From the NCBI RefSeq assembly GCF_000375425.1, contig NZ_AQXG01000001.1, positions 561,176-593,175 of the forward strand: a DNA stretch of 32,000 nucleotides, in the 5' to 3' direction. The notes under the pieces were generated by a model, which did no database searches, had not been told where the DNA came from, and saw only the letters and a program-made list of their open reading frames with translations. Source of the stretch: Gracilimonas tropica DSM 19535 (lineage in GTDB: Bacteria; Bacteroidota; Rhodothermia; Balneolales; Balneolaceae). This document shows, in pieces, positions 5,238 through 31,355 of the stretch (positions are counted from its first letter, which is position 1; every line of letters starts with the position of its first letter). The position numbers and the translations under genes are program-made.

Positions 5238-6746
5238 ATGCTTCGAAACCAACAAAATTTAAATCAGAAACAGCAGCAGAGTTTACAGCAAAAGCTTTCG
5301 CCTCAACAACTTCAGTACATAAAACTGCTGCAGTTGCCTACTATAGGACTGGAACAGCGCATCAAAGAAGAGATCGAAGCTAATCCGGTATTGGAAGAAG
5401 TAGATCCCGGAGAAGAGGATACTGTAAGTCTTTCTGAGGTTGATGAAAATCCTAAAGAAGAGAAAGAGGAAGCGCTCGAAAGTCTTGAGGAGCACGAAGT
5501 TGACTGGGATGAGTTTGATAAAAACACGGAATATGATGGCGAGCAGTTCGGTAATTCTTTTAATCCCGATATTGAAGAATGGAAGGAGCTTCCCAATCCT
5601 TATCAGGCTTCTTTTTTAGAACAACTGGAGGAACAGGTAAATTTACTTGACCTTACGGATGAGGAACAATTGATAGCCGATCAAATTTTGGGCTCACTTG
5701 ACGAAGATGGTTATTTCCGGCGTGAATTGGAGGCGGTGGTGGATAACATTGCTTTCAACCAGGGTATTTTGATTGATGAAGAGATGGTTGAGAAGGTTCG
5801 AAAAGAGATTCAACAGCTTGAACCAATTGGTATAGCTTCCCGAGATCTCAGAGACTGCTTATTGGTACAACTGAGAGCCTCAGAGAAGAAGCTGCCGGGC
5901 TTGAACCTTGCCATCCAGATTGTTAAAAATGCATGGAAAGCATTCGAGAAAAAACACTTTTCTAAGTTGCTGAAAAAATTCAAAGTCACCAGGGAAGAAT
6001 TGAACGATGCATTTGAGGCTATAAAGCAAATGGATCCACGGCCCGGTGCTGTGGCAAGTGGACTTGAGGAAACTCAAAATTACATTGAGCCGGATTTTGA
6101 GGTTTACTGGAAGGGCATTGAAGACGGTGAAAGTGATCGGGGGGAGTTCATCATCAACCTGAACCAACGGAATGCCCCTTCACTCCGAATATCTCCGGAA
6201 TACAAGCAAATGTGGGAAGAGATCAAATCCAAGAAAGAGAAAAAATCAGATTCAGATGCCCGAAACTTTATGAAGAGTAAGATCGATTCGGCAAATTGGT
6301 TTATAGAGTCGATTCGTCAGCGGCAAAATACGCTGATGAATATCATGAAGACCATTGTGGCATTGCAGGAAGATTTCTTTAAGTACGGAGAAGGACTCAA
6401 ACCTATGATCCTGAAAGATGTAGCTGAAAGAATTGGCATGGATATTTCGACTGTTTCGAGAGTTGTAAACGGTAAATATGTACAGACTTACTTTGGGGTT
6501 TATGAGTTAAAATACTTTTTCAATGAGGGGCTGGAAACTGAAAGCGGAGAAGAAGTATCTAACCGGGAAGTAAAGAATATTCTCGAAAACATCATCAATA
6601 AGGAAGACAAGCAAGATCCTTACAGCGATCAGCAACTAACCGATATGTTGAATGAAAAGGGGTATAAAGTAGCGCGAAGAACGGTTAGCAAATACAGGGA
6701 ACAGCTAAACCTTCCGGTTGCGCGGATGAGGAAACAAGTGATCTAA
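5238..6746 (+). CDS. rpoN: RNA polymerase sigma-54 factor
   Basis: Gln/Leu-rich region I (QQQSLQQKLSPQQLQYIKLLQLP), an acidic region II, a C-terminal HTH (ISTVSRVVNGKY) and the RpoN box ARRTVSKYR. Confidence 0.95.
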   Translation: MLRNQQNLNQKQQQSLQQKLSPQQLQYIKLLQLPTIGLEQRIKEEIEANPVLEEVDPGEEDTVSLSEVDENPKEEKEEALESLEEHEVDWDEFDKNTEYDGEQFGNSFNPDIEEWKELPNPYQASFLEQLEEQVNLLDLTDEEQLIADQILGSLDEDGYFRRELEAVVDNIAFNQGILIDEEMVEKVRKEIQQLEPIGIASRDLRDCLLVQLRASEKKLPGLNLAIQIVKNAWKAFEKKHFSKLLKKFKVTREELNDAFEAIKQMDPRPGAVASGLEETQNYIEPDFEVYWKGIEDGESDRGEFIINLNQRNAPSLRISPEYKQMWEEIKSKKEKKSDSDARNFMKSKIDSANWFIESIRQRQNTLMNIMKTIVALQEDFFKYGEGLKPMILKDVAERIGMDISTVSRVVNGKYVQTYFGVYELKYFFNEGLETESGEEVSNREVKNILENIINKEDKQDPYSDQQLTDMLNEKGYKVARRTVSKYREQLNLPVARMRKQVI

Positions 6747-8269: not shown

Positions 8270-9070
8270 CTAAGCTATACCTGAACGATTTTGCTGGATG
8301 TGGGCCTGGAGTTTATCATATATCTGAAGTGCGGTCTTTCCTTCCTCAATCAAAAGTACTCCTTCCAGAATTAACTTTTTCCGGAAATATTTTGAAGATG
8401 CGATATTATTCATCTTTCGTGCCATGGGATTGAAAATAAAGTTACCGATAATAATTCCATATAAGGTTGTCATTAAAGCGGCGGCTAAACCTGTAAGCAG
8501 CGTTTCTATTTGATCAAAGTCTGAAAGGATTACGATCAGCCCAAATAAGGTACCCAACATTCCAAAAACCGGAGCGCTTTTACCCATGCTCGAAATGATG
8601 TCGTTGATCTTTTTTTGCCTGATATAGCTTTCCTGGATATTTGCTTGTCCCAATTCTCTGAGTTCTTGGGTTGAATAGTTTGTATCCAGAACAGAAAACA
8701 GGTAGCCTGCAAACTCTTCTTCGTATTCCAGGCTTAACTCCTCAATAGCTCCCATGCGGTCAGCTTTTATTCTTTTTTGCCATTGAATGATTTTTTCGAT
8801 GTCTTCGGCAAGCAGTTCATCGGTGATCTTGCTATAGGAAAATAATTTAAGACTGTCACGAATGGCTTTGAATACATCTCCGAACTCATAACTAATGAAA
8901 ACACTTGCAAGAATACCCCCGAAGACGATCGCCAGGCTCGGTAAATTCAAGAACCGGTAATCATCAGGAATAAAGTTAAAACTGCTTACCCCGATTACTA
9001 AAAGGGCACCCCATACCAATATCACCGATGCGATCAAAAAACACAGAATATTTAAAACAGAAGTACGCAT
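8270..9070 (-). CDS. MotA-type (flagellar-stator-like) proton channel subunit (266 aa)
   Basis: Four-TM MotA/PomA layout with a ~100-aa cytoplasmic loop between TM2 and TM3. SAPVFGMLGTLFGLI and LMTTLYGIIIGNFIFNPMARKM carry both conserved Pro positions. The C-tail LILEGVLLIEEGKTALQIYDKL resembles the MotA tail. Confidence 0.85.
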   Translation of the reverse strand: MRTSVLNILCFLIASVILVWGALLVIGVSSFNFIPDDYRFLNLPSLAIVFGGILASVFISYEFGDVFKAIRDSLKLFSYSKITDELLAEDIEKIIQWQKRIKADRMGAIEELSLEYEEEFAGYLFSVLDTNYSTQELRELGQANIQESYIRQKKINDIISSMGKSAPVFGMLGTLFGLIVILSDFDQIETLLTGLAAALMTTLYGIIIGNFIFNPMARKMNNIASSKYFRKKLILEGVLLIEEGKTALQIYDKLQAHIQQNRSGIA

Positions 9071-9076: not shown

Positions 9077-9622
9077 CTAATTTTGTGGATTGTAGTTTTC
9101 ACCAATCAGTCCTTCTTTTTTCAACTGTTGTATCAGGTAGGGGATATTTGGGATTGGGACTTCATTGTCCATCTCAAGTGCAAGTCTCCATTGCTCGGTA
9201 AATTTTTCAATGTCTCCAAGCCCGAGATAAATACTCCCCCTAAGAGCCAGAATATCTGCTGTTTCCTTGATTTCCGCAGCTTTATTAATATGATATAATG
9301 CACTTTGAAATTTCCCCATATAAAATAGCCTCTGTGCGGAGGAATAGAAGGTAGTGATTCCGTTGGCCCGTCCCTGATATCGTTCACTCAGTTCCCGGAT
9401 ATATTGTTGTTCCAGTTCTTGCTGCCTTTTTTGGGCTTCCAGCTCTTCTAGTGTCAACTGAGCAGTGCTATCTGCACTCACAGAATCGACAGCCTGAGTT
9501 GTTTGTGTGCTTTCATCGGCAGATCTGTTTTTTTCTGAAGCACTGCAATTTATGCACAGAACTGAAATGCCTATGTACAATCCGGTTAATATCTTTCTCA
9601 AAGAGGAAATAACTGATACCAC
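9077..9622 (-). CDS. Secreted or lipoprotein-like coiled-coil plus TPR-like protein (181 aa)
   Basis: Hydrophobic N-terminus ending ..GISVLCINCSAS. Coiled-coil segment LEELEAQKRQQELEQQYIRELSERY. The TPR-like C-terminus is paralogous to the C-terminus of the 999-aa protein. GTG start at 9620-9622; an internal TTG giving MRKILTGLYIG.. is an alternative. Confidence 0.6.
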   Translation of the reverse strand: MVSVISSLRKILTGLYIGISVLCINCSASEKNRSADESTQTTQAVDSVSADSTAQLTLEELEAQKRQQELEQQYIRELSERYQGRANGITTFYSSAQRLFYMGKFQSALYHINKAAEIKETADILALRGSIYLGLGDIEKFTEQWRLALEMDNEVPIPNIPYLIQQLKKEGLIGENYNPQN

Positions 9623-9658: not shown

Positions 9659-11530
9659 TTAATTCAATGCTTTACGAATAGCATCTATAACCATATGCTT
9701 GGCCTGTTCGCCTTTATCAGAATAATTCATCTGTTGAAGTTCCATACGTATCAGATGTTGTTCCCGTTTGGGACGAACAGATAAAAGTTTATCGGCAATT
9801 TCATTATCAAAGCTATAAACTGCTTCCAATAAAAGTTCTGTGGGGATGTGCGCAATGGCTCTCTTGATCAAAGAATGGCTCAGGTGTGGAATTTGATCAA
9901 TAGTGATGAATTGTTCCTCTATAATCCCTGCAACAGGCGATCCGGAAGCTTTCAATTGTTCTATATAGTTAGCCTGATCTTCTAAAGGCATTTGTTGAAT
10001 TATTCTCAGGATATTTTCAGTCCCTTGTTTTAGCTCTTTTTCTACCTCCAAAATATCCATGGCTTTAGAGAACAATCGGGAGGATATCTCTTTGTGTTCT
10101 TTGTACGAAAGAGTATGTAATTGGGCTATACCAAGCATGATATCGACTGTTCGGTCTTTGCCGATCTTATTCAACACTTGAGCCGCTTCGGATTCCGGAA
10201 GATAATCAATAAGCAAAGCTGAAGTGATCCTATCTTCTCCATGAAGAAGCTGCACAATATGATAATCTTTAAGGTGATCAAGAAACTGGAATAGCCCCAA
10301 TTGTTGATGCTTGGCCTTAGCTGATCCGCTTCCAAGTTTATTATTGAGTGCGTCGGCGAATTCGGCAATAGCCGGTTTTGTTGCCTCCGGCGACAAGGGT
10401 TCTGTCGAATTTAACTGGGCCTGAATAGTTTCAAAGTAGGCAGGTTTTAATTCTCTTTTGAGGGCTTTTATAAGGTGCCGGTCTACTGTTTGAATTATAT
10501 TCGAAGCTTTTTCAGCCCCTTTTTTGAGATCGTTTTCCATCCAAAATTCAAATAGCAAGGCGACTTCTTTTGGGTGGTTTAAAAATTGGTCGGTAACAAA
10601 TGTTGTCCCTGCATTGCTGTTGGTTACAGATGCCTTATGGTCATCAATAAAGTCTTCAGCCGAGGGTTGTTTGCTTCCTGGAATTCGTTCACGGGGAACA
10701 TGCATTTCGTGTTTAAGATCATCTCTCGATAATCCGGCTTTATGATCTTTTTTCGGCTGTTTTCTTGAAGGGGAATGAGTAAGCCTTCCAATCAACAAAG
10801 TCAGTCCAACCAAAAGCAGTAATACAAACCCCGGGATATAGTCTTTTACTGAACCCAATAAGGTTTCCCGGGCATCTGCCGGTTCTTCAATTCTGACAGG
10901 AGGGAGCGACTCAATCCCAAAGTCGGGCATGTTGATCAGGGTTATATTTACTTCATCGCCCCGTACTTCATTGATCTTAGCCGCTATCCCGGCTATTAAC
11001 CGCATAAATTCAACCCGATCTTGTTGCCGTGAGATTGAAGAATCAGCATATACGTTGACGCTCAGCTTTAGGATCTGCAACCTTTGTATGGTTTGCTCAT
11101 TTATGATCGTTTGGGTGGTTTCCTGATCATTACTTTGAACTTCTGCCGTCCTCCGGTTTTCTTCAGGTAGAAAAGGCAGACCCGGCATTATTACATTCTC
11201 CTGTTGAGTTCGTCCGCCTTTGATGATTTGATTTTGAGTGGTCTGGAAAGTCTCGTCTACAAATCGTGCATCGATGTTTATATCCACAAAAAACTTTCGG
11301 CTATCAAAGTAATTGGATAATACGTTCAGAACTTGAGCATCGAACTGTTGTTCAAGGGTAATTACTTTTAATTCCAATGACTCAGCGGTATTGGGTTGAG
11401 CATATGTTACCGTGAAGGGAAGGAGGAGAAGAAAAAACGGGAGTATCACTTTCCATAAATGCGAGAGCAAAGCATTGCAATACTGCTTTACTTTCGAACC
11501 ATTTTGAAATGTAAGTGATGCTATTCTCAT
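9659..11530 (-). CDS. Membrane-anchored protein with a FliF/YscJ-like periplasmic ring-building part, one TM, and a FliG middle/C-terminal-like cytoplasmic part (623 aa)
   Basis: Signal-like N-terminus VILPFFLLLLPFTVTYAQ. The periplasmic block LKLSVNVYADSSISRQQDRVEFMRLIAGIAAKINEVRGDEVNITLINMP resembles the FliF/YscJ motif. TM segment GFVLLLLVGLTLLIGRL. Cytoplasmic FLDHLKDYHIVQLLHGEDRITSALLIDYLPESEAAQVLNKIGKDRTVDIMLGIA is FliG_M/MgtE_N-like. FITIDQIPHLSHSLIKRAIAHIPTELLLEAVYSFDNEIADKLLSVRPKREQHLIRMEL..AKHMVIDAIRKAL is FliG_C-like. Its ATG overlaps the upstream stop as ATGA. The CDS is solid; the function is inferred. Confidence 0.6.
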   Translation of the reverse strand: MRIASLTFQNGSKVKQYCNALLSHLWKVILPFFLLLLPFTVTYAQPNTAESLELKVITLEQQFDAQVLNVLSNYFDSRKFFVDINIDARFVDETFQTTQNQIIKGGRTQQENVIMPGLPFLPEENRRTAEVQSNDQETTQTIINEQTIQRLQILKLSVNVYADSSISRQQDRVEFMRLIAGIAAKINEVRGDEVNITLINMPDFGIESLPPVRIEEPADARETLLGSVKDYIPGFVLLLLVGLTLLIGRLTHSPSRKQPKKDHKAGLSRDDLKHEMHVPRERIPGSKQPSAEDFIDDHKASVTNSNAGTTFVTDQFLNHPKEVALLFEFWMENDLKKGAEKASNIIQTVDRHLIKALKRELKPAYFETIQAQLNSTEPLSPEATKPAIAEFADALNNKLGSGSAKAKHQQLGLFQFLDHLKDYHIVQLLHGEDRITSALLIDYLPESEAAQVLNKIGKDRTVDIMLGIAQLHTLSYKEHKEISSRLFSKAMDILEVEKELKQGTENILRIIQQMPLEDQANYIEQLKASGSPVAGIIEEQFITIDQIPHLSHSLIKRAIAHIPTELLLEAVYSFDNEIADKLLSVRPKREQHLIRMELQQMNYSDKGEQAKHMVIDAIRKALN

Positions 11531-14526
11531 TTAGGAGTACTTTCCGCTTCAGGTATTACCATTCTGTCTAATTGTTCCATATCCGGAATGTAAATATCCG
11601 GATCGTATTTTTTTGCTAAATCCCAATAAGATCTAGCATTTTCCTTCTCATTATTCAAGTAAGCCAAACTTCCTTTTAAAGCATAACCTTGAGCAGTTTC
11701 AAAAATATTCAGTGATTCATTAACAAGACTCATTGCCCGGCTCAGGTTCTTATTATAGAAAGCATTTTGTGCTTTAATAATCAATCTTAAAACTTCATCC
11801 AAATTTTGATCAAGTTCAGATTCCAATGCCAACATTTTTTCGTCCGTTTTTATCTCATTGGGAATGGCCTCTGCAGTAATAGGGGAGGCCTCAACTTCCG
11901 GCACTTCATAATCCTGAGGGACTACTAAAAAAGAAAGTCCTTCCACAAAATCCCCTTCCGGTATAGCTTCAACTTCAAATTTCAGACGTTCAGGTATCGA
12001 CTTAGATTGCAATTGTTGAAGATTACCCCGGTCAATTTCGAGACTATATGAACCCGGAGGCACTTCCCATTCATAAAAACTTCCGTCAGAGAATGTTCTT
12101 AATTCTTTAGCAAAATCTCCGTTAGAATCTGATAATCTTAGCTTTAATCCTCCGATCCCGGTTTTACTGCTATCATCTCTCATTCTTTCCACAAATCCAT
12201 CAATAACCCCAGACATATAAAATGGAATTTCCACCTTCTTAAAGCGATTTGGATCGGTGATGAGTCCAAATTTTTCAAATTCCGGAACCAGCATAGGATT
12301 CTGAATGGCGGCTTTATTCATTTCCATATTGTAATAGAAATAGGGCTGCATCTGGGTATAATAAAGAATTCCATCTTTAGACTGACTGATCGCTCCGGAT
12401 CGCTGGATTCTTACGGCATTTCCTTTAATGGGGTCGTCTCCATCGTCAAAGGTGCCATTGTTATTGTTATCCACAAAAAGCTGTATAGCAGTACCAGAAC
12501 GGCCAACCTGATCGCGGCTGGTAAAGAGGAAGTTGTTGTAGTTGGTGTCATACCCGATAGAACCTCGAATATTTTGTGTGAGATTGTTATTCCCACTTAC
12601 ATTATTAAAGGTGGTGTTGGTTCTTACTTTATCGAAATCTATCACGAAGCTAAAGCGGATCGTATTAAAGTCTCGGGCAAAATTCCGGCCTACAGATAAC
12701 TGGAACTGCCCCTTGTTAAATAGGTTTCTGGATACAAGAAATTCAGCAGATTCGAATTGATCCACAGTAGGCTGGTACCTCATTTGTGCTCTCAGGAAAA
12801 CACCCCGCATAAAATTGGGAAGGTTCCTGTTTCTGGAGATGTTATAAGTAGCAGAACTTTCGAAGAAAGCTGTTTGAGTTGGATTGAATGGATCGAAGGT
12901 ACCGGTGTATCGATCGCTGTATCCAATCCGAACATTCATTCTTCCAATTCTGGTATTCGCATCTAAGCGAAAGGAGGTATTACTGGTGTTAGTTCGGAAC
13001 CGGGAAAAAGCTGATGCTCTTAAATTGAAGGGTAATCCACCAAAATTAAATGGATAAAAAACACTGCTTACTAAACGTTTATCATCATTGGAGGGATTGT
13101 ATACTCCAAAACCACTTGTGAAATCCGTGTAATCTATGTTTATGCTTGCGGAATTCGGGTAGATGACGTTCAATAATCCCCTGTAATAAGCTTGAGAAGC
13201 TGCTTCAAGGGTTAACAGGTAATTAGAAGAAATTCTCGAAGATACACTGCCCGTAAAAGTCGGGAGATCAGTATGATATCCTTGAAAAAACTCTATACCT
13301 GCCTTAGCCGTGAGCCAGTCGGTGACACCATAAGCACCGTTACCCTGGGCAGTGAACTGCTGTGAAGTTTCTCCAAAAATAGGATTGTCTAACTGACCGG
13401 CATTGATCGTGTAGTTAAACACTCCCTGAGGCTGGAAAGTAAAAGGAATCTGTATACGATCGGAACGCTCAATGACCTGACCGGTAGGACCGTAAATTCT
13501 CAGGTCAAGTTGGGAGGTTCCATAAGAAACAGGGGTAAGAAATCGGTAATTACCTAATTCATCAGCTTCCTGAAAATCGATCAAAGCGTTGTTCATGTAT
13601 AGTTCCACTTCAGATTCCGGGATTGTGCTTCCTTGAACTACAAACTCATCAAACATCCTTCGGGGCTCAATAGGCTCATTTGATAATCGAACCCCGGTGT
13701 ATGAATTTCTTGTAAAACCGTCAGTTGTGGTTTGTCCGATGGTGAGTTTTGTCAACCAGGGCTGATCCCGGAACATATATCGCCAGCGAAGATTGTCGGT
13801 GGCAAAGTTGGTAAAATTATCCGAGTAGCTTCCGAAAATTGAACCCTGAAGATCTCCTCCGTAAAGCTGAATACCCAGATTGGTATTAAAATTATACACT
13901 TGGTTATTGGGGGTTGCGTTTGCAGAAATATTGTAATCTACAAAACCGCCATCTAGGAAGGGGCGCTGGCGGTCGTACATCAAATCATATTTGGTATCCT
14001 GAAGGCGATTTCGGTCCGCTACTTGCCTACGTTGAGATCGTATAGCCTGTTCTATTGCAGGCAGTTCCTGATTGGTTTGTAAGTTCAGGGTTAGATTGTT
14101 GAAGTTTATGGTAAAATCAAGTCCAAATGCTTCATAGAATACCTCAGCCCGCAAATAACTGTCAATTTCTCTGAGGATATAATCATCAACGGTAAGCTCA
14201 ATGGTTTTGTCTCCGAAACGGATCTGATTGGCTTGGAGATTAATACGATAGGGAGTTTGATCGACTCCAAATTTCCCTTCAATGACGAGTCCGTTAACAT
14301 TCTTGTCGATATTGAAAAGGCTGAAAAGTTCTGAGACGGGGAGATAGAACTCGTCATTCTTATAGTAAGAAATAACAACGGTGTTGATAACACCACGGTG
14401 ACGGAAGTCTAAGTAAACCTCAAAAACATCTTCGTCATTATTTTGTGCAGAAGCATCATTTGGGAAGAAGCCAATACAAAAAATGAAAGAGAATATGATT
14501 GATATTGAAGACTTCCATCGGTACAC
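11527..14526 (-). CDS. Usher-like outer-membrane protein with extra CarboxypepD_reg-like and TPR-like C-terminal modules (999 aa)
   Basis: Signal peptide ..FFPNDASAQ. VELYMNNALIDFQEADELGNYRFLTPVSYGTSQLDLRIYGPTGQVIERS resembles the usher plug/middle-domain pattern. A long region of alternating Gly/aromatic/Asn residues is typical of a beta-barrel. GIGGLKLRLSDSNGDFAKELRTFSDGSFYEWEVPPGSYSL is carboxypeptidase-regulatory-like. The C-terminus is TPR-like. GTG start 1 nt after the chaperone stop. Confidence 0.55.
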   Translation of the reverse strand: MYRWKSSISIIFSFIFCIGFFPNDASAQNNDEDVFEVYLDFRHRGVINTVVISYYKNDEFYLPVSELFSLFNIDKNVNGLVIEGKFGVDQTPYRINLQANQIRFGDKTIELTVDDYILREIDSYLRAEVFYEAFGLDFTINFNNLTLNLQTNQELPAIEQAIRSQRRQVADRNRLQDTKYDLMYDRQRPFLDGGFVDYNISANATPNNQVYNFNTNLGIQLYGGDLQGSIFGSYSDNFTNFATDNLRWRYMFRDQPWLTKLTIGQTTTDGFTRNSYTGVRLSNEPIEPRRMFDEFVVQGSTIPESEVELYMNNALIDFQEADELGNYRFLTPVSYGTSQLDLRIYGPTGQVIERSDRIQIPFTFQPQGVFNYTINAGQLDNPIFGETSQQFTAQGNGAYGVTDWLTAKAGIEFFQGYHTDLPTFTGSVSSRISSNYLLTLEAASQAYYRGLLNVIYPNSASINIDYTDFTSGFGVYNPSNDDKRLVSSVFYPFNFGGLPFNLRASAFSRFRTNTSNTSFRLDANTRIGRMNVRIGYSDRYTGTFDPFNPTQTAFFESSATYNISRNRNLPNFMRGVFLRAQMRYQPTVDQFESAEFLVSRNLFNKGQFQLSVGRNFARDFNTIRFSFVIDFDKVRTNTTFNNVSGNNNLTQNIRGSIGYDTNYNNFLFTSRDQVGRSGTAIQLFVDNNNNGTFDDGDDPIKGNAVRIQRSGAISQSKDGILYYTQMQPYFYYNMEMNKAAIQNPMLVPEFEKFGLITDPNRFKKVEIPFYMSGVIDGFVERMRDDSSKTGIGGLKLRLSDSNGDFAKELRTFSDGSFYEWEVPPGSYSLEIDRGNLQQLQSKSIPERLKFEVEAIPEGDFVEGLSFLVVPQDYEVPEVEASPITAEAIPNEIKTDEKMLALESELDQNLDEVLRLIIKAQNAFYNKNLSRAMSLVNESLNIFETAQGYALKGSLAYLNNEKENARSYWDLAKKYDPDIYIPDMEQLDRMVIPEAESTPK

Positions 14527-21329: not shown

Positions 21330-22463
21330 TTACTCAAAGGTACTCAGCCGAACGTATCTGTTTTGTTTTAGCATGGAAGCTGAGGCAAGTTGTGCATACT
21401 TTTCAGCGGTGCAATCATACTGTATATCAATGGTACCGCCCAGGTCAATATCAAAATTGGAGTAGTTGTTTTCAGTTTTGCCTACAAGTACGGAGCCATT
21501 TATTCTTGGAGTTCCCCGTCCGGTCATGGTATATGCATTTTCAAAGATTACCAATCCGTTAAAAGTAAAATTTCCGGCTACAGAAAGTTCCCCTTCGTAT
21601 TCCAGTTCCCCATTGGTTCTAACTACCATAATGCCATATCCTTCGGAAATACCACCGGTTAGTTTGGCGTAATCTTCTACAAAAAATACACCGGGATTGT
21701 CAGCCGTACCCATGCTCCCTTTATAATTACCACTGACTTTCACCACCTCATTCATTTGAGCAAGCCGAGCTACTAATTCATCAACGGGTTCGTACGATAT
21801 ATCTGGGTCAACAGCTATGGCAGCACTGTCACTTTCAAAATGCTCAGAGTTATCTCCGCCTGACAGCCATTCAACAAAGTTATCGGCTCCGGTAATTTTA
21901 TCTGCTGAACCTTCATCCCTTACGGTCATAGCTGGTTTTGAGGGACAAGTACCGCTGGCATCGTTACCGCTTATTAAGGCGCTACCACTCGCTGCAAAGG
22001 AGAAATCATGTTCACCGACTGCTAAAGACATCGCTGATTGAAATTCGGGGACGAAGTGCATGGCTGTTTTTACATAAGTCGTAATAATATCAATGCTCTC
22101 TTTTTTATTTGTGAGGGGATTCTGATACCAGGAGGAAGCATATATTTCAAGAGTATCTCCCTGTAAAGAAGAGAATGCCCCGGTCGAAGTCGATTTAATA
22201 AGATTGTAGTAGAGAGAGATAGAATCACCGTCAATTTCTTCGATCCAGGGTGAGCTTTTTGTGGGATGCCATGAGCCTCCGCTTTCATTAATTCTTTCCA
22301 TTGTAATTTGAGCGGCAGTGAATGCTTTGTTTCTGATTTCAGTCTCATATGCGGAGACGGCATTATTTGCTGTGATACCTTCTCTTTGGCCCTGTATGCC
22401 TACTTGGATGATGCCAATTACAATTACTGCACCGGCACTAATTATCAACATTGCTCGTCCCAT
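21330..22463 (-). CDS. PilX/GspK-class large pseudopilin-like protein, set 2 (377 aa)
   Basis: N-terminus MGRAMLIISAGAVIVIGIIQ is nearly identical in pattern to the set-1 protein. The C-terminal beta-helix-like block is GYGIMVVRTNGELEYEGELSVAGNFTFNGLVIFENAYTMTGRGTPRINGSVLVG. Confidence 0.6.
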   Translation of the reverse strand: MGRAMLIISAGAVIVIGIIQVGIQGQREGITANNAVSAYETEIRNKAFTAAQITMERINESGGSWHPTKSSPWIEEIDGDSISLYYNLIKSTSTGAFSSLQGDTLEIYASSWYQNPLTNKKESIDIITTYVKTAMHFVPEFQSAMSLAVGEHDFSFAASGSALISGNDASGTCPSKPAMTVRDEGSADKITGADNFVEWLSGGDNSEHFESDSAAIAVDPDISYEPVDELVARLAQMNEVVKVSGNYKGSMGTADNPGVFFVEDYAKLTGGISEGYGIMVVRTNGELEYEGELSVAGNFTFNGLVIFENAYTMTGRGTPRINGSVLVGKTENNYSNFDIDLGGTIDIQYDCTAEKYAQLASASMLKQNRYVRLSTFE

Positions 22464-22478: not shown

Positions 22479-23078
22479 TTAATTATTTGGTCTTAAATTT
22501 ACCGGCGAAAATCGCTTCTTCCAGTAGGTTTTGGTGTACCTGCCAGAGTCTGTATTCCGCTGAGAAAGGGTATAATTACTTTGCAATTCCAGTTCTATCT
22601 CGACCTGCACAATCTTAGAGAAATCAGAACTACTCACCGGGGTAGTCATAGGAATGTCAGAGCCGTAAGAGTCGTAGTAATTGATCCTGAACTTTGTGAC
22701 ACCAACGGTTATTTCAGTTTTATCACCGTCAACTGTGCGTACCAATATCTCATCATTTGGGTTTTTTGAATTTGTAACAGGAGCGTCGGTGTATTTCCAT
22801 GTAACAAGTTCGACATTACCAGCATCATCGAGATTACTGTAGAAAGAGATTTCAGTACTATCAGCTTTTACAAAAATATTTGAAAGTATTCCCTTTTCCT
22901 GATAACCAATTTTTGGAATATCGTGGATGATCATATCCTCAATTGCTTTGCTGTGACTGGATTTTGTAAGAGTTGTTGAAACTTCCTGATTGCTATAATT
23001 CACATTTTGAGTCACAGAAAGGATGGTTAACATCAGGAACCCGGCTATTATGTAACTAATTAATATTCCGTAATTCAT
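22479..23078 (-). CDS. PilW/GspJ-class pseudopilin-like protein, set 2 (199 aa)
   Basis: N-terminus MNYGILISYIIAGFLMLTILSV. IEDMIIHDIPKIGYQ. KNPND, F+INYYD and WKKRFSPVN blocks are shared with the 19921..20511 protein. Confidence 0.6.
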   Translation of the reverse strand: MNYGILISYIIAGFLMLTILSVTQNVNYSNQEVSTTLTKSSHSKAIEDMIIHDIPKIGYQEKGILSNIFVKADSTEISFYSNLDDAGNVELVTWKYTDAPVTNSKNPNDEILVRTVDGDKTEITVGVTKFRINYYDSYGSDIPMTTPVSSSDFSKIVQVEIELELQSNYTLSQRNTDSGRYTKTYWKKRFSPVNLRPNN

Positions 23079-23084: not shown

Positions 23085-23630
23085 CTAATCTGCATAATAA
23101 CTTCGGATGAAACTGAAATTGTAGATGGTGTTTTCATTATCTAAGTTTTTTTGAAGGAACTTGGACTGAATTTCAACCGTGATTCTTTTCAGAGTAGATT
23201 TGCCACTTACCACCCAAAAATCTTGATAATTAGTTGTCTCAATATATTCTACTCTTACTGCGACATCGTAATCAACCCCTCCAATTGATACGCTTTCCCT
23301 AAAGCCATGAAAATCGTCAAAGTCGTCAAATTGAGTGCGGTTGACTTCAGGGTCGGCAGAGGTGTCATCAGGTCCTAATGCGGAAAATCCAGAGGGGATA
23401 TAAACCGGAACCGTGCTGTTTCCTTCAGAGTCGTAAGTTGTCTCTTCATCAAATGCCAGTGCCCTGGATTCTTCAATTATATCCTGAGCGTAGGCTACTA
23501 CTTGTCCTTCCAGCTGCCCTTCAATCATGGTTGAATTGTTCACTTGTATCACGCGATTAGCATTTAATGCCATCGTCGATACAATCACCATGGAGAGCAT
23601 CACATATAAAACTTCATCATATCCAGCCAT
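23085..23630 (-). CDS. PilV/GspI-class small pseudopilin-like protein, set 2 (181 aa from ATG; 183 aa if TTG at 23636 is used)
   Basis: The track start at 23636 is a TTG. The ATG two codons downstream gives MAGYDEVLYVMLSMVIVSTMAL. VVAYAQDIIEE is comparable to AIALAQDELDN in set 1. There is an acidic FDDFDDFHGF block. Confidence 0.55.
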   Translation of the reverse strand: MAGYDEVLYVMLSMVIVSTMALNANRVIQVNNSTMIEGQLEGQVVAYAQDIIEESRALAFDEETTYDSEGNSTVPVYIPSGFSALGPDDTSADPEVNRTQFDDFDDFHGFRESVSIGGVDYDVAVRVEYIETTNYQDFWVVSGKSTLKRITVEIQSKFLQKNLDNENTIYNFSFIRSYYAD

Positions 23631-23777
23631 GTCCAACCACTTTATTTATTGGATAAAGATAATATTAAAATGTTTTAATAAATAGTGATTTTTTCAAACC
23701 ACTTTATCTGTAGTACGAAGCTTTTGTAAAGGCAGATTGGAAAAAATTACAAGAAAGGTATATGGAAGAGAGTACTA

Positions 23778-26700
23778 CTATTTGATGAGAAGCATTTTCT
23801 TGGTACGCACATTATCGTTGGTAATTATGCGGTACAAATATAAACCACTGGCTAAGCTGCCTGCTCTAAAACTAATGGTATGTCGGCCTGCGGGCATTTT
23901 TTCTGAAACCAGGGTATGTACTTTTCTTCCCAGGATATCAAATACCTCAAGGCGGACATCACTTTCTTCTGTTAACCCAAATGGAATAGTGGTTGTTGGA
24001 TTAAAAGGATTCGGATAATTTTGATAGAGATAAAATTCTTCAGGGATGTTGGCTTCAATTTCTTCGGTGGTTAATCTGAGCACAAACCGGGACCGGTCCA
24101 AATTACTTCGTTTCACAGGCGCTCCTTCACTCGGGCTGGAGATGAACAGCTTGGAGTCGGAGTTATAACTAAAGGTATAGCTGGCGTTTTCCCTCAGGTC
24201 AATTTGCTTGCCAGAGTCGTTGTCAATCAGGATTAACAGCCACTCTTCAGGGACATTTCGAAGCATATCGCGGGAGATGGTGAATTGTCCCATTTCCGGT
24301 CTGCCGTGTCTGAAAGCAGCAAAATGAAGAGGAATATTTTGCCGGTATTCAAACTCCCTTGGAATATTATTGATGGCCAGTTCTGTTCCATTTTCAAGAG
24401 TAGAATAGAATTCAATATGGGTATCTGAAAATGGAACCAGTCGAAGCGCATCATGCATATCTTTACCAATGGATGCATTTTTGCCGCCCATAATAAATGT
24501 TTGCTTTGTAAGCTCTTCTCCACTTGCCCTCAATGCAATAACCGGAGCATAATTCTCGTAATCCTGATGTTTTTTTTCTGATTCCGGAGCCTCTTTCCGT
24601 AAGAAATTACCGCCGGTAGTTTTGGCTTCCGTATCTACTATCAACTCCGGACCTGGACCATTAGCCTTCACCCAAAATCCCTGGAAGGGAGGGATTATTC
24701 CACTTCCTAAAGAACCGGTTGAACCGTTCCAGGTTAAAAATTCACCGTTACCATTGTTAGCCGCAGGATCCCAAATATAAATGGTGGATTCCATGTTGGT
24801 TTTGGTCCAGTTCGCATTATCATCCCAATTGATGGCAGCTCCAAAAGGATTTCCAACGAAATTCCATCCCGAGTCGGCTGAAGGCGTATATGTGACTCCA
24901 AAATCAAATTCTGAACTTCCTGAACCAAATTCTTGTCCGGCTACATCCAGGGTATCGGGAAGCGGATCGTTATAAAGTGGGTCTGCGGGAATGTTTCCAA
25001 AGAAATACACCCAGTATCCTCGTCCGCCGGCTACAGAGTTAGTGGCGTTGGCAGGAGCGCGTAACCGGTCATTATCTGTGGCTGGCAGTCCTTCAACATT
25101 AGTATCATAATCCTCGAGATACCACATTACATTAGGCTGAAGAGTGTCTCCGGGGTTGGAGCCCGTGGAGTAGGTCGCACCGGTATATCCCTGGGTCAGG
25201 GTGCCATCCAGAAAATCTCCGAAGGTTGAGTTAACAGGTGAAGAAAGCATTCTCCAGCCGCGAACGCCGGAAATTCTACGCTGGAATCTCAGATTTCCTG
25301 AGCCATAGGCCAAATTACTGGCCAGAAGGTTTATCCCGGAAGGAATCAATAATTCTCCATCGGTAAGTGTCAGCAATCCATTTACGGTGAGATTCTCTGA
25401 AATGGTGAGCGTATTTGGATTATCCAGTTCCAAATTGATAAAATCGGTGGGACTTACAATTTCCTGATCGGTATTTCCATTAAATATGACGGTCCCCAGG
25501 GTAATTTCAGAGATATTGAGATTTCCTCCTACCGTGAGGGAGTCATTATTACTACCCAGTATCTGACCATTTCCGGTTACATCCCCGGAGACGATGAAAT
25601 TGATTCCTCCGGCTACATTTAGCTCAGCACTTGCTTCTATGGACAGTTCTGCAATTTCGGTGTCGGTTTGAGAGACCGCCGGAAACTCATTTCCTACAGC
25701 AGGATTAGCGGGAATCAAAACTACTGACGACGCATTCGGCACGCTGTTGACGTTCCAGTTATCCGGATCGAAATAATTGGAGGCATCCGAAAGTGAACCC
25801 AGCTGACTTTCCCAAATATGACTGAAAGAAGCGAACTCTACTTCGGCCTCATCGGTGATATCATCACCATTAAGCGTGCCGGAAATAGTTGCGATGCCAG
25901 TAGATGTGGACGAAGTTAATGTGGCCGAATATGTTCCGTCTCCATTATCTGTAACTCCGCCAATAGAACCGAGTGTAGTGCTCAAGGCAACCGTTTCTCC
26001 CCCAGAATCAATAATATTCCCAAATTCGTCTTTTGCCTGAACAGTGATGGCAGAAGTGGAGGACCCATCGTTCAGAATTACTGTGGGAGAGGCGGTGATG
26101 CTTGTCTGCGTCTCATCAACCGGGCCGGGGATAACAAGGAAAGAATTACTGGTACCACTTTCGGAACCGGCAGAATTGGTGGCGGTTATCGTACAGCGTT
26201 TTACGTTGGTGATATTTACAGTCAGCGAAGACAACACTCCCGAACTGAAATTAGGAGTAGTTCCTTGTCCGGCTCCAAGATTACAGGACGACGTAACACT
26301 CACCGTTCCATTAAAAGAAGTGATGGTATCGCCAATGCCGTCAATAGCTGTAATTTTGATATTGAAATTCTGTCCGGCAAACTTCTGGCTGATGTTTCCA
26401 CTTGGAACGCGTTCAATTTTGAAACCAGTGAGAACACCGGCATTTACAACCTGGAAGGTGTTGGTAACCGCGTCATCAAGTCCTGTGCTGGTTGCGGTGA
26501 GGCGTTTGGTGCCAGTCTCATCAATTTCGAGATTTGCGAATTCGGCTATCCCAAGTGTGTTGGTCTGCGTGGTGGTAGTTCCTGAAAGAGTTCCGCTGCC
26601 GGAGCTTAAAGCTATGGAAACATTGGTTCCGGCAGTTTTAACTTCATTTCCAAACTGATCGGTAAGCTGAACCCGCACAGAAGGGGAGATTACCGTATTT

Positions 26701-31355: not shown

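What the first reader, a model, noticed from the sequence alone, without database searches (positions are those of the whole stretch)
6743..31355. 24.6-kb strictly co-directional supercluster mixing parts of four different surface-machinery classes
What the sequence shows:
- Twenty consecutive minus-strand genes, with no plus-strand gene between them.
- The only gaps longer than 60 nt are 147 nt (23631-23777), 389 nt (20941-21329), 148 nt (17939-18086), 217 nt (16042-16258) and 134 nt (15359-15492).

The content draws on four classes:
- a T9SS cargo (the giant adhesin);
- type IV filament-like minor pseudopilins (two sets);
- an archaic chaperone-usher fimbria (DUF4402/SCPU-like subunits);
- flagellar-motor-like parts (MotA, MotB, FliF/FliG-like).

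Each class is incomplete on its own. Together they could form one composite apparatus, or a co-regulated adhesion/motility island.
Basis: inference. Interest (0 to 1): 0.8.

Follow-up and report, generated by a model that had tools for sequence, protein, structure and literature searches.

The report
Fimbrial usher locus with flagellar-type motor
A non-motile marine bacterium keeps, in one conserved gene block, a giant surface adhesin and a complete chaperone-usher fimbria system, and the fimbria's outer-membrane pore appears to be wired to a stripped-down flagellar rotor and stator, a combination I found described in none of the papers I searched.

Summary
There are 18 (not 20) co-directional minus-strand genes at 6743-31355. 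The stated gaps are exact.

The organism is Gracilimonas tropica (Balneolaceae), which is described as non-motile.

In 59 complete related loci the gene order is fixed:
- a T9SS adhesin;
- 0-3 'triplets';
- 3-4 DUF4402-type subunits;
- a chaperone;
- an usher;
- an optional motor.

The chaperone-usher system is complete. The usher model matches FimD/PapC (Foldseek E 5e-29).

The 'FliF/FliG-like' gene is a natural fusion of the FliF RBM3/collar, a TM helix and FliG (N/M/C). It is followed by a TPR lipoprotein and flagellar-type MotA/MotB.

The motor and the usher co-vary perfectly:
- 32 loci have the motor and an usher with a TPR C-terminus homologous to the cassette's own TPR lipoprotein.
- 26 loci lack the motor and have a longer usher. 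All ten C-terminal extensions scanned carry SPOR.
- The usher and rotor genes abut or overlap.

The motor derives from a widespread stand-alone cassette: rotor fusion, small outer-membrane barrel, TPR, MotA, MotB.

The 'pseudopilin' label is unproven. The triplets are facultative and can sit elsewhere in the genome.

Verdict: a real, modular, partly composite apparatus. The usher-motor coupling appears new. It rests on comparative genomics and predicted structures only.

The parts
23778..31355 (-). Giant adhesin (2525 aa): signal peptide, DUF2341, two LamG_3 domains, Big/Invasin_D3 repeats, a conserved ~620-aa pre-CTD region and a T9SS type A CTD.
   Evidence: Pfam and NCBIfam hits. The C-terminal 620 aa are 44% identical to the adhesin of locus L005, which lacks DUF2341/LamG. 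An Adh homologue lies directly upstream of the fimbrial genes in nearly all related loci.
23085..23630 (-). Triplet A, small protein A1 (181 aa). N-terminal sequence is M-A-G-Y-D-E followed by a hydrophobic helix and a long amphipathic helix.
   Evidence: Alignment A5. Paralogue of B1 at 22-26% identity. No Pfam or PDB profile hit.
22479..23078 (-). Triplet A, medium protein A2 (199 aa). N-terminal MNxG followed by a hydrophobic helix; G4 is invariant.
   Evidence: Alignment A6. Paralogue of B2 at 28-33% identity. No Pfam or PDB hit.
21330..22463 (-). Triplet A, large protein A3 (377 aa). N-terminal MGRAML followed by a hydrophobic helix.
   Evidence: Alignment A4. Distant paralogue of B3 at 17-21% identity.
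20941..21329 (.). 389-nt intergenic gap between triplet A and triplet B. Probable internal promoter region.
   Evidence: No minus-strand ORF of 25 aa or more. No Rfam match. Holds one copy of a 25-nt repeat shared with the gap at 15359-15492.
20521..20940 (-). Triplet B, small protein B1 (139 aa).
   Evidence: Alignment A5.
19921..20511 (-). Triplet B, medium protein B2 (196 aa).
   Evidence: Alignment A6.
18530..19897 (-). Triplet B, large protein B3 (455 aa): N-terminal anchor helix, DUF4900 and a bactofilin-like beta-helix region.
   Evidence: Pfam DUF4900 31.4 bits against a cut-off of 29.4. 20 of 38 family members hit DUF4900 and 15 of 38 hit Bactofilin weakly.
18087..18470 (-). P127: small exported protein, probably a beta-sandwich, that always follows B3.
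   Evidence: Follows B3 in all B-type sets, including the stand-alone set in L084. A homologue gives a weak CBM_20 hit.
17429..17938 (-). Fimbrial subunit D1 (DUF4402).
   Evidence: Pfam DUF4402 25.6 bits against a cut-off of 25.2. The C-terminus has a penultimate Tyr and a Gly at -14 (read).
16779..17432 (-). Fimbrial subunit D2 (DUF4402-like, 217 aa).
   Evidence: Weak DUF4402 hit. Carries the same C-terminal Gly(-14)/Tyr(-2) motif.
16259..16786 (-). Fimbrial subunit D3.
   Evidence: Aligns with D1, D2 and D4 in alignment A3. Carries the C-terminal Gly(-14)/Tyr(-2) motif.
15493..16041 (-). Fimbrial subunit D4 (DUF4402-like). Missing in some relatives.
   Evidence: Weak DUF4402 hit. Penultimate Tyr. 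Relatives carry 3 or 4 D genes.
14528..15358 (-). Periplasmic chaperone candidate (276 aa, two Ig-like halves).
   Evidence: 6 of 29 family members hit PapD_N (best E 3.6e-4). Sits between the subunits and the usher in every locus. One nucleotide separates it from the usher gene.
11527..14526 (-). Outer-membrane usher (999 aa): N-terminal domain, plugged beta-barrel, two C-terminal beta-sandwich domains and an extra C-terminal TPR domain.
   Evidence: AF2 model with pLDDT 82.9. The top 19 Foldseek PDB hits are all FimD or PapC, E 5e-29 to 1e-9.
11527..11880 (-). C-terminal TPR domain of the usher, found only in motor-bearing loci.
   Evidence: BLASTP against the window's TPR lipoprotein gives E 8e-8, and against the TPR of the stand-alone cassette in L002 gives E 4e-14. 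All ten motor-less ushers scanned carry SPOR here instead.
9659..11530 (-). Rotor fusion (623 aa): signal peptide, periplasmic FliF-RBM3/beta-collar-like domain with an invariant PGLPxxP loop, one TM helix and a cytoplasmic FliG N/M/C region.
   Evidence: Pfam FliG_M 35.0 bits and FliG_C 31.4 bits, both above cut-off. AF2 model with pLDDT 77.5. Foldseek matches full-length FliG (E ~1e-6) and FliF RBM3 S-ring chains (E ~1e-4, TM-score normalised to target 0.56). Overlaps the usher gene by 4 nt.
9077..9622 (-). TPR protein (181 aa) with a signal peptide and Cys residues that could form a lipobox; probable lipoprotein.
   Evidence: Weak TPR hits, and an NCBIfam hit to the Pal N-terminus. Conserved in every motor cassette.
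8270..9070 (-). MotA/PomA-type stator A subunit.
   Evidence: Pfam MotA_ExbB. Best PDB relatives are flagellar MotA and PomA, E ~4e-22.
6743..8263 (-). MotB-type stator B subunit (506 aa) with plug, TM Asp, OmpA-like domain and a C-terminal SPOR region.
   Evidence: Pfam MotB_plug, OmpA and SPOR. The segment SYLDIITILL aligns with the PYADILTLLL segment of PDB chain 6ysl_A.
31460..32000 (-). C-terminal end of a second T9SS-CTD protein that runs off the window edge.
   Evidence: Frame stays open to position 32000. Por_Secre_tail hit.

Best explanation
The block is one conserved but modular surface-fibre locus of Balneolaceae.

The constant core has two parts:
- a giant adhesin exported by the type IX system;
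- a complete, very divergent chaperone-usher fimbria system, with 3-4 DUF4402-type subunits, a PapD-like chaperone and a FimD/PapC-fold usher.

Two optional modules plug into this core.

(1) A four-gene rotary-motor cassette sits directly behind the usher gene, abutting or overlapping it. It consists of:
- a rotor protein that naturally fuses the FliF RBM3/collar, one TM helix and a complete FliG;
- a TPR lipoprotein;
- flagellar-type MotA and MotB, the MotB carrying SPOR.

The cassette descends from a widespread stand-alone five-gene cassette whose outer-membrane partner is a small beta-barrel protein (X361). In the fimbrial locus the usher has taken that place. It did so by acquiring a C-terminal copy of the cassette's TPR domain.

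Inferred mechanism:
- Ion flow through MotA5B2 stators, anchored to peptidoglycan by OmpA and SPOR, applies torque to a ring of the fusion protein.
- The ring's periplasmic collar, perhaps through its invariant PGLPxxP loop, engages the TPR modules. This couples inner-membrane energy, or at least position, to the usher and its fibre.
- Where the motor is absent, the usher instead binds peptidoglycan directly through its own SPOR domains.

(2) Zero to three copies of a 3-4-gene 'triplet' encode small, medium and large proteins, each with an N-terminal hydrophobic helix. Their role is unknown. They may be a periplasmic or surface accessory of the adhesin or fibre. They are not obligatory and not always linked to the locus.

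Shown: gene content, folds, synteny, co-variation and domain homology.
Inferred: ring formation, rotation, the TPR-collar contact, and what the energy is used for.
For: Identity and lifestyle:
- The rotor protein is 100% identical to a Gracilimonas tropica protein.
- The species is described as non-motile (PMC4642740).
- A KEGG-based survey did not detect flagellar-assembly genes in G. tropica, Balneola or Fodinibius (PMC9909488).

Synteny:
- 78 loci were fetched with the usher.
- Order is conserved.
- Of 59 complete loci, 32 have the motor, 26 lack it and 1 shows a decaying motor.

Usher: AF2 pLDDT 82.9, and the top 19 Foldseek hits are FimD or PapC, down to E 5e-29.

Subunits: DUF4402 hits, and the Gly(-14)/penultimate-Tyr motif in D1-D3.

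Chaperone: weak PapD_N hits in 6 of 29 relatives.

Rotor fusion:
- FliG_M and FliG_C score above Pfam cut-offs.
- The AF2 model matches both full-length FliG and the FliF RBM3 S-ring.
- Engineered FliF-FliG fusions form rings (PMC10941966, PMC11481574, PMC6079021; abstracts listed).

Stators: nearest solved relatives are flagellar MotA/PomA and MotB/PomB. The TM Asp is kept and MotB_plug is present.

Usher-motor coupling:
- Motor-bearing ushers are 989-1021 aa and align to the query's end. Motor-less ushers are mostly 1150-1506 aa and diverge after about residue 880.
- All 10 motor-less C-terminal extensions scanned carry SPOR.
- The usher TPR domain is homologous to the cassette's TPR lipoprotein (E 8e-8 and 4e-14).
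- The estimated gap between usher stop and rotor start is -9 to +43 nt in 39 loci.

Ancestry of the cassette:
- A profile search finds 184 representatives at E <= 1e-30, mostly 560-810 aa and aligned end to end.
- All 42 metagenome loci fetched show the cassette as far as their contigs reach. The 28 that extend far enough carry all five genes: fusion, X361, TPR, MotA, MotB.
- X361 has a signal peptide and a beta-barrel-like C-terminal half ending in an aromatic residue. 7 of 24 members give weak OMP_b-brl hits.
Against: - No experiment, expression data or protein-protein evidence is available.
- Both optional modules are dispensable for the core. 26 of 59 loci lack the motor, so the fibre can be made without it.
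- The stand-alone cassette mostly has no usher or other large outer-membrane protein nearby. Its native job is therefore not fimbrial.
- The usher-TPR/collar contact is conjecture. TPR homology could reflect shared binding to something else, for example peptidoglycan-associated partners.
- The window's usher, chaperone and D3 do not reach Pfam thresholds.
- The chaperone fold was not modelled.
- The rotor lacks a recognisable FliM-binding EHPQR motif, and no FliM/FliN is present. A switchable flagellar-style C-ring is therefore excluded, and ring stoichiometry is unknown.
Confidence: 0.55

Rival explanations
1. Simple juxtaposition. Unrelated surface loci (a T9SS adhesin, a fimbrial operon, a membrane-anchored triplet set and a relic motor cassette) have accumulated in one co-oriented adhesion island. 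At most they share regulation. There is no physical composite machine.
For: - Triplets and the motor vary independently of each other and of the core.
- A B quartet stands alone at another site in the genome that holds L026.
- In L068 the triplet lies behind the usher and the adhesin is on the other strand.
- Relatives of the motor cassette stand alone among housekeeping genes in 42 metagenome loci.
- The window has 134-389-nt gaps that could hold internal promoters.
Against: - Motor presence matches the usher's C-terminal domain type in every complete locus.
- The usher's TPR domain is homologous to the cassette's own TPR lipoprotein.
- The usher and rotor genes abut or overlap in 39 loci.
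- The adhesin is adjacent to the fimbrial genes in essentially every locus, across usher identities of 36-75%.
Confidence: 0.2
2. The motor cassette serves envelope anchoring or positioning rather than energy transduction. The fusion ring, TPR lipoprotein and MotB (OmpA and SPOR) simply tether the usher to the wall and inner membrane, for example at septa or poles. This is the same job the SPOR domains do in motor-less loci. Ion flow, if any, only regulates assembly.
For: - SPOR is always present, either on the usher (motor-less loci) or on MotB (motor loci).
- Motor-less loci evidently function.
- L039 shows the motor decaying while the usher persists.
Against: - The stator keeps the flagellar hallmarks needed for ion-driven torque: the plug, the TM Asp and MotA TM3/TM4 motifs aligned with solved stators.
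- The FliG C-terminal domain is the best-conserved part of the fusion, with an invariant RExxL segment in the C-terminal helix.
- A passive tether would not need five conserved genes across at least 184 sequence clusters.
Confidence: 0.15
3. One reading: the triplets are type IV-filament minor (pseudo)pilins. They would form GspI/J/K-like tip complexes that present the giant DUF2341/LamG adhesin, in analogy to MshO/P/Q. They would be assembled by type IV machinery encoded elsewhere.
For: - All six proteins start with a very short leader followed by a ~20-residue hydrophobic helix.
- A1/B1 continue into a long amphipathic helix and carry a conserved acidic residue at position 5-6.
- The small/medium/large size series recalls GspI/J/K (my own knowledge).
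- Sets can stand alone, as minor-pilin operons often do.
- The adhesin's DUF2341 and LamG domains also occur in MshQ (my own knowledge, not tested here).
Against: - No N_methyl or other pilin family hit in Pfam or NCBIfam, even at lenient E-values.
- Profile searches against PDB sequences find no pilin.
- There is no Gly(-1)/Glu(+5) in register.
- A3 and B3 are DUF4900 plus beta-helix, unlike GspK or PilX.
- No ATPase, platform, secretin or prepilin peptidase appears in any of the roughly 80 loci.
- The long-form adhesin occurs in at least 10 loci without triplets.
- The adhesin carries a T9SS CTD, a different export route.
Confidence: 0.2

Closest known systems
Chaperone-usher fimbriae (FimD/PapC ushers; archaic sigma-type Csu/SCPU systems)
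   Same: - Plugged-barrel usher fold with N- and C-terminal periplasmic domains.
- Gene order subunits, chaperone, usher.
- Several small beta-rich subunits carrying the Gly(-14)/penultimate-Tyr motif.
- Weak PapD_N and Usher profile hits in relatives.
   Different: - Sequences are too divergent for the Pfam Usher and PapD models.
- The usher carries an extra C-terminal TPR or SPOR domain.
- The usher gene abuts or overlaps a flagellar-type rotor gene, with stator genes further downstream.
- No two-domain tip adhesin is evident. A giant T9SS adhesin sits upstream instead.
- Classical chaperone-usher assembly needs no inner-membrane energy source (established knowledge).
Bacterial flagellar motor (FliF MS-ring, FliG, MotA5B2 or PomAB)
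   Same: - FliG N/M/C fold and a FliF RBM3/collar-like domain.
- MotA/MotB of the flagellar type with plug, TM Asp and OmpA-like domain.
   Different: - FliF and FliG are one polypeptide, and RBM1/RBM2 are missing.
- The locus has no export gate, rod, hook, filament or FliM/FliN.
- The EHPQR motif is not kept.
- MotB has added SPOR domains.
- The host is non-motile.
Chlamydiaceae FliF-FliG natural fusion (Bergeron 2016, PMC4768692)
   Same: A natural fusion of a shortened FliF and a FliG-like region in a non-flagellated bacterium.
   Different: - The chlamydial protein is about 330 aa, keeps RBM2 plus one further RBM, and has only a FliG-M-like region.
- The paper mentions no MotA/MotB stator partner and proposes a link to the injectisome.
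- The fusion here has RBM3/collar plus FliG N, M and C, and always travels with MotA, MotB, a TPR protein and an outer-membrane partner.
Trans-envelope ion-driven 5:2 motor systems (TonB-ExbBD, Tol-Pal with CpoB, GldLM/T9SS, AglRQS-Glt)
   Same: - A MotA/ExbB-family stator in the inner membrane is genetically linked to an outer-membrane barrel and a TPR periplasmic protein.
- One Balneolaceae paralogue sits next to a TonB-dependent-receptor-like protein with a Plug domain.
   Different: - The stator here is of the flagellar clade, not the Exb/Tol clade.
- The stator's partner is a FliG-bearing ring protein rather than TonB, TolA or GldM.
- None of those systems is known to feed an usher (my own knowledge; no paper found).
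Type II secretion / type IV pilus minor pilin tip complexes (GspI/J/K; FimU-PilVWX-PilY1; MshO/P/Q)
   Same: - Three proteins of graded size, each with an N-terminal hydrophobic helix.
- Encoded next to a very large adhesin.
- Sets can be unlinked from the machinery.
   Different: - No prepilin motif, no pilin-family profile hit and no cognate machinery nearby.
- The large member is DUF4900 plus beta-helix.

Membership tests
Chaperone-usher pathway | Outer-membrane usher with the FimD/PapC fold (N-terminal domain, 24-strand barrel with plug, C-terminal domains) | tested here: met
   AF2 model with pLDDT 82.9. The top 19 Foldseek PDB hits are FimD or PapC, E 5e-29 to 1e-9, with 500-940 aligned columns.
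Chaperone-usher pathway | Match to the Pfam Usher family (PF00577) at its curated threshold | tested here: not met
   No hit for the window protein. One of ten relatives hits at E 3.2e-4.
Chaperone-usher pathway | PapD-like two-domain periplasmic chaperone | tested here: inconclusive
   6 of 29 relatives hit PapD_N weakly (best E 3.6e-4), but the window protein does not. No PDB sequence hit.
Chaperone-usher pathway | Subunits with the conserved C-terminal motif (penultimate Tyr, Gly at -14) and an Ig-like fold completed by a donor strand | tested here: met
   The motif was read directly in D1, D2 and D3. D4 keeps the penultimate Tyr only. The fold and the donor strand were not tested.
DUF4402 (PF14352) fimbrial-type subunits | Score at or above the Pfam gathering cut-off of 25.2 bits | tested here: inconclusive
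   D1 25.6 bits (met). D2 20.5 and D4 19.4 (below). D3 no hit.
Archaic (sigma) clade of chaperone-usher systems | Phylogenetic placement of the usher with CsuD/SCPU-type ushers | not tested
   No usher phylogeny was built, and no Csu or SCPU hit appeared in the Pfam or PDB sequence searches.
Flagellar stator (MotAB/PomAB) | MotA four-TM subunit plus MotB with plug helix, conserved TM Asp and OmpA-like peptidoglycan-binding domain | tested here: met
   Pfam MotA_ExbB, MotB_plug and OmpA. Best PDB relatives are flagellar stators (E ~1e-22). The Asp in SYLDI aligns with that in the PYADI segment of PDB chain 6ysl_A.
Flagellar rotor (FliG) | FliG middle and C-terminal domains | tested here: met
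   FliG_M 35.0 bits against a cut-off of 25, and FliG_C 31.4 against 23.3. Foldseek matches full-length FliG chains over about 310 columns.
Flagellar rotor (FliG) | EHPQR motif that binds FliM, and presence of FliM/FliN | tested here: not met
   The window has GEDRIT where FliG has EHPQT. This comes from reading alignment A8; the motif itself is recalled from the literature. No FliM or FliN gene appears in the window or in any related locus.
Flagellar MS-ring (FliF) | Periplasmic ring-building motifs RBM1, RBM2 and RBM3 between two TM helices | tested here: not met
   Only an RBM3/beta-collar-like domain is present (Foldseek E ~1e-4 to 6sd1, 7cg7 and 6scn). There is no RBM1 or RBM2. The N-terminal helix looks like a cleavable signal peptide.
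Bacterial flagellum as a whole | Type III export gate, rod, hook and filament genes | tested here: not met
   Absent from the window and from roughly 120 related loci. A KEGG-based survey did not detect flagellar-assembly genes in G. tropica (PMC9909488). I could not scan the whole genome myself.
Type IV filament (pseudo)pilins | Class III signal peptide (Gly at -1, Glu at +5; N_methyl PF07963 / TIGR02532) | tested here: not met
   No Pfam or NCBIfam hit for any of the six proteins or for 46 relatives at E up to 5. Read from the alignments: G4 is invariant in A2/B2 but +5 is Tyr or Phe. A1/B1 have Glu or Asp at position 6 of the unprocessed protein.
Type IV filament (pseudo)pilins | Pilin fold (long N-terminal helix packed on a beta-sheet) | not testable with these tools
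Profile searches against PDB sequences found no pilin.
Type IV filament (pseudo)pilins | Cognate machinery nearby (ATPase, platform, secretin, prepilin peptidase) | tested here: not met
   None in the window or in any fetched locus, including the stand-alone quartet L084.
T9SS cargo | Type A C-terminal sorting domain | tested here: met
   Por_Secre_tail 36.6 bits against a cut-off of 27, and TIGR04183 38.2 against 23.

The most novel reading that the evidence does not exclude
The cassette of FliF-RBM3/FliG fusion, TPR protein and MotA/MotB, together with an outer-membrane partner, is a previously unrecognised trans-envelope rotary machine. It spans several phyla and descends from, or is sister to, the flagellar motor.

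In Balneolaceae it has been grafted onto a chaperone-usher usher. The result would be the first ion-powered chaperone-usher fibre, one that is rotated, tensioned or actively gated.

This would give non-motile bacteria a use for 'half a motor'.
Probability: 0.35. Interest if true: 0.92.

Novelty: categorically new. Interest (0 to 1): 0.82.

Why it matters
- Chaperone-usher assembly is the textbook case of an outer-membrane machine that works without cellular energy. An usher hard-wired to a flagellar-type rotor and stator would overturn that, or reveal a new way of moving, tensioning or gating a fibre.
- It gives a concrete, testable answer to a published open question: why about 11% of non-motile species keep rotor proteins without a filament (PMC12199754).
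- The minimal fusion rotor has no export gate and no FliM/FliN. With its stand-alone relatives it bears on how the flagellar motor evolved, and it offers a much simpler rotor for structural and single-molecule work.
- The natural motor/SPOR swap between sister species of one genus provides a ready-made comparative experiment.

Tried and rejected
- Sequence-profile searches of the chaperone, D-subunit and usher alignments against PDB sequences found nothing relevant.
- The same searches for the three triplet families found no pilins.
- Pfam at lenient E-values on 46 small and medium triplet relatives gave no pilin or other recurrent family.
- NCBIfam gave no names for the chaperone-usher or triplet proteins. 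The 'TafC fimbrial' hit of the adhesin is only LamG-domain similarity to an archaeal Tat-fimbria subunit.
- My idea that the motor is a general energiser of plugged barrels (usher or TonB-dependent receptor) was weakened. The receptor-like neighbour occurs only in Balneolaceae-type loci. Most stand-alone cassettes end after motB, and their upstream neighbours are housekeeping genes such as rpoBC, smc and methylmalonyl-CoA mutase.
- The idea that DUF2341/LamG on the adhesin tracks the triplets, as in MshQ, was rejected in cis. The long-form adhesin occurs in at least 10 loci without triplets.
- The L002 972-aa protein is not a homologue of the usher.
- Promoter and terminator scans showed no excess over shuffled sequence. 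Rfam found nothing.
- Two look-ups of the adhesin, meant to read upstream of the window, failed, probably because of a start-codon mismatch.
- Literature searches for DUF4402, DUF4900, FliG-like, and usher together with FliG/MotB found no description of this system.


Full report
**1. Observation**

The ORF listing shows an uninterrupted series of minus-strand ORFs from 6743 to 31355. The plus-strand ORFs in the interval are short and lie antisense inside the minus-strand genes.

I count 18 genes, not 20. The 389-nt gap contains no minus-strand ORF of 25 aa or more and no Rfam family.

The run is longer than stated at its upstream end. The ORF at 31460-31822 is only the tail of a further T9SS-CTD protein whose frame stays open to the window edge. 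At the downstream end rpoN (plus strand) converges on motB.

**2. Gene content**

Pfam and NCBIfam confirm the following:
- A 2525-aa adhesin with DUF2341, two Laminin_G_3 domains, Invasin_D3 and a type A T9SS sorting domain.
- MotA, and MotB with MotB_plug, OmpA and SPOR.
- A 623-aa protein with FliG_M and FliG_C above threshold.
- A TPR protein.
- Four small exported proteins with marginal or sub-threshold DUF4402 hits.
- DUF4900 in one of the six 'pseudopilin' candidates.

Nothing in either library names the 276-aa and 999-aa proteins or the other five triplet proteins.

**3. Organism**

The FliG-containing protein is 100% identical to a Gracilimonas tropica protein. The type strain is described as non-motile (PMC4642740). 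A comparative study of Balneolaceae did not detect KEGG flagellar-assembly genes in G. tropica, G. amylolytica, Balneola or Fodinibius (PMC9909488).

**4. Is the block conserved?**

I aligned usher homologues and scanned one genome per species. This returned 78 loci. Almost all are titled Balneolaceae or one of its genera; a few carry broader or different MAG labels, and one is a 23%-identical Gemmatimonadota hit.

phmmer of the window's proteins against six-frame ORFs of every locus shows one conserved order:

adhesin, [0-3 triplets], D1-D3/D4, chaperone, usher, [rotor fusion, TPR, MotA, MotB].

Of 59 loci with complete flanks:
- 32 have the motor.
- 26 lack it.
- 1 (L039) has a truncated rotor gene, a TPR gene and no stator.

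Triplets occur in 21 of 32 motor loci and 19 of 26 motor-less loci. The two optional modules therefore vary independently.

Exceptions exist:
- In L068 the triplet lies behind the usher and the adhesin is on the opposite strand.
- In the genome that holds L026, whose main locus has no triplet, a B1-B2-B3-P127 quartet stands alone 1.7 Mb away among unrelated genes.

It is not met for the adhesin-fimbria core, nor for the usher-motor pair within this family.

**5. The fimbrial core is a complete chaperone-usher system**

- Usher. An AF2 model of the 999-aa protein (74-sequence alignment, pLDDT 82.9) finds FimD and PapC as its top 19 PDB matches (E 5e-29 to 1e-9). Beyond the usher body it has an all-helical C-terminal domain (residues ~890-990).
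- Chaperone. The 276-aa protein sits where a chaperone should. 6 of 29 relatives touch PapD_N (best 3.6e-4).
- Subunits. D1-D3 end with the classical signature of chaperone-usher subunits, Gly at -14 and a penultimate Tyr. I read this directly; the signature itself is established knowledge.
- Thresholds. None of these proteins reaches the Pfam thresholds for Usher or PapD, and profile searches against PDB sequences were empty. This is a very divergent branch.

The claim that this class is 'incomplete' is wrong.

**6. The 'FliF/FliG-like' gene**

The AF2 model (54 sequences, pLDDT 77.5) has, in order:
- an N-terminal signal-like helix;
- a periplasmic alpha-beta-beta-alpha-beta domain with two long strands and a disordered loop carrying an invariant PGLPxxP motif;
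- one TM helix;
- a disordered linker;
- an all-helical cytoplasmic region.

Foldseek matches the cytoplasmic part to full-length FliG (3hjl, 8wiw, 8umx; ~310 columns). It matches the periplasmic part to the RBM3/beta-collar S-ring of FliF (6sd1, 7cg7, 6scn; E ~1e-4, TM-score normalised to target 0.56).

It is thus a natural fusion of the FliF RBM3 domain, a TM helix and FliG. Engineered FliF-FliG fusions assemble rings and support rotation (PMC10941966, PMC11481574, PMC6079021; PMC9389320). The one published natural precedent I found is the much shorter chlamydial FliF-FliG(M) fusion (PMC4768692).

The family keeps an invariant R-E-Q-x-L segment in the C-terminal helix. By my recollection of the E. 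coli FliG sequence, this corresponds to the charged torque helix. The family does not keep the FliM-binding EHPQR motif.

MotA and MotB are of the flagellar kind. Their nearest solved relatives are MotA/PomA and MotB/PomB (E ~1e-22 and ~1e-21). The TM Asp and the plug are present.

**7. Evidence that the motor is coupled to the usher**

(a) Motor-bearing ushers are 989-1021 aa and align with the query to its end. Motor-less ushers are mostly 1150-1506 aa and lose homology at about residue 880.

(b) All ten motor-less C-terminal extensions that I scanned contain SPOR domains (E 8e-8 to 5e-21). In motor loci the SPOR domain sits on MotB instead.

(c) The TPR domain at the C-terminus of motor-type ushers is homologous to the cassette's own TPR lipoprotein. 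It is 32% identical over 65 aa (E 8e-8) to the window's copy, and 36% over 73 aa (E 4e-14) to the copy in a distant stand-alone cassette.

(d) The usher and rotor genes overlap by 4 nt in the window. Their estimated spacing is -9 to +43 nt in 39 loci.

(e) Other Gracilimonas species carry the SPOR-type, motor-less version at the same rpoN-adjacent site. The swap is therefore recent and recurrent.

**8. Where the motor comes from**

A profile of the fusion family, searched against 1.84 billion representatives, finds 184 clusters at E <= 1e-30. Most are 560-810 aa and align end to end. One is from an Elusimicrobiota MAG.

A metagenome scan with a distant subgroup returned 42 loci. Each shows the cassette as far as its contig reaches. 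The 28 that extend far enough carry the same five genes in order: fusion, X361, TPR, MotA, MotB.

X361 has a signal peptide, a periplasmic half and a C-terminal half with beta-barrel character that ends in an aromatic residue. 7 of 24 members give weak OMP_b-brl hits.

Flanking genes are unrelated housekeeping genes. Only in Balneolaceae-type loci does a TonB-dependent-receptor-like protein follow.

The usher-linked cassette lacks X361. The simplest reading is that the usher, by gaining the TPR module, replaced X361 as the outer-membrane partner.

**9. The triplets**

A and B sets are paralogous: small 22-26%, medium 28-33% and large 17-21% identity.

All six proteins begin with a 2-4-residue leader followed by a hydrophobic helix. 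A1/B1 carry M-x-[GS]-Y-x-[ED] and a long amphipathic helix. A2/B2 have an invariant Gly4. A3/B3 start with MGR.

This architecture is compatible with pilin-like proteins, and the size series recalls GspI/J/K. Several points count against that reading:
- No pilin profile matches in Pfam, NCBIfam or PDB sequences.
- Gly(-1) and Glu(+5) are not in register.
- The large members are DUF4900 plus a bactofilin-like beta-helix.
- No type IV machinery lies in any locus.

The label stays unproven.

**10. The adhesin**

Its C-terminal ~620 aa (before the CTD) are 44% identical to the adhesin of a locus with only 60% usher identity. An Adh homologue precedes the fimbrial genes almost everywhere.

Two forms exist: a short form of ~1700-1755 aa without the DUF2341/LamG part, and a long form. 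The long form occurs in at least 10 loci without triplets. DUF2341/LamG therefore does not track triplets in cis.

How a T9SS-exported adhesin relates physically to the fimbria is unknown. The constant adjacency suggests a functional link, perhaps docking on the fibre.

**11. Mechanism (inference)**

- MotA5B2 units, fixed to peptidoglycan by OmpA and SPOR, drive a ring of the fusion protein.
- The ring's periplasmic collar contacts TPR modules, both on the free lipoprotein and on the usher.
- This links ion-motive force, or at minimum envelope position, to the usher.

What the energy does is open. It could rotate, tension or retract the fibre, or gate the plug. Because motor-less loci work with a SPOR-anchored usher, a pure anchoring or positioning role is the main mechanistic rival.

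**12. Novelty**

The chaperone-usher system and the T9SS cargo are new members of known kinds. The fusion-rotor, TPR, MotAB and outer-membrane-partner cassette, and its graft onto an usher, match no system I know. No paper I could find describes them.

A recent survey explicitly leaves unexplained why 11% of non-motile species keep rotor proteins without a filament (PMC12199754).

All functional statements rest on comparative genomics and predicted structures.

Noticed in passing
window 31460-32000 (-): The ORF listed as 120 aa is the C-terminal end, with a T9SS CTD, of a larger protein whose frame is open to the window edge. It is a second T9SS cargo upstream of the giant adhesin. Several relatives also have two Adh-like ORFs in tandem (L014, L038, L075).
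   Followed up: partly
window 15409-15433 and 21169-21193: A 25-nt direct repeat (TATT[TG]CCAATTTTAC...) occurs in two intergenic gaps of the cluster, upstream of the chaperone gene and upstream of triplet B. It may be a shared promoter or operator element.
   Followed up: no
L039:12840-14265: A locus with a motor-type-length usher is followed by a truncated rotor gene (298-aa ORF) and the TPR gene, with no motA or motB. The motor appears to be caught in decay.
   Followed up: partly
L084:8943-11733: A stand-alone B1-B2-B3(DUF4900)-P127 operon sits among unrelated genes, with ComEC- and ComEA-like genes at the locus edges. It is in the same genome as L026, whose adhesin-fimbria-motor locus has no triplet.
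   Followed up: partly
L002:10001-18017, also L087 and L126: A paralogous cassette (fusion, X361, TPR, MotA, MotB) in Balneolaceae is followed by a 972-aa protein with a TonB-dependent-receptor Plug domain (Pfam E 1.4e-7). This is a second pairing of the motor with a plugged outer-membrane barrel, in a Balneolaceae chromosome of the same length as the one that holds L071.
   Followed up: partly
window 5238-6746 (+) and 6743-8263 (-): rpoN (sigma-54) converges on motB with a 4-nt overlap of gene ends. rpoN flanks the locus in Gracilimonas and some Balneola genomes whether or not the motor is present. The motor was therefore inserted or deleted between the usher and rpoN.
   Followed up: partly
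window, N-termini of the exported proteins (usher, chaperone, D1-D4, P127, rotor fusion, adhesin): The usher, chaperone, D1-D4, P127 and rotor-fusion signal peptides end in Ala-Gln. The adhesin's ends in Gly-Gln. My reading, from my own knowledge, is that this is the Bacteroidota-style cleavage site that leaves an N-terminal Gln. It implies the rotor fusion's first helix is cleaved and the mature protein has a single TM helix.
   Followed up: no
L016, L018, L021, L026, L030, L040, L041, L045, L054, L066 versus L005, L038, L056, L057, L064: The adhesin comes in a long form (over 2100 aa, including the LamG-type N-terminal part) and a short form (~1700-1755 aa, starting at the equivalent of window residue ~1395).
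   Followed up: partly
window 173-4253 (-) and 4657-5232 (+): The left flank is ordinary housekeeping: RNase E/G, MurA, a biotin-lipoyl carrier protein and a small Cys-rich protein. The same neighbours occur in relatives (L001, L004).
   Followed up: no
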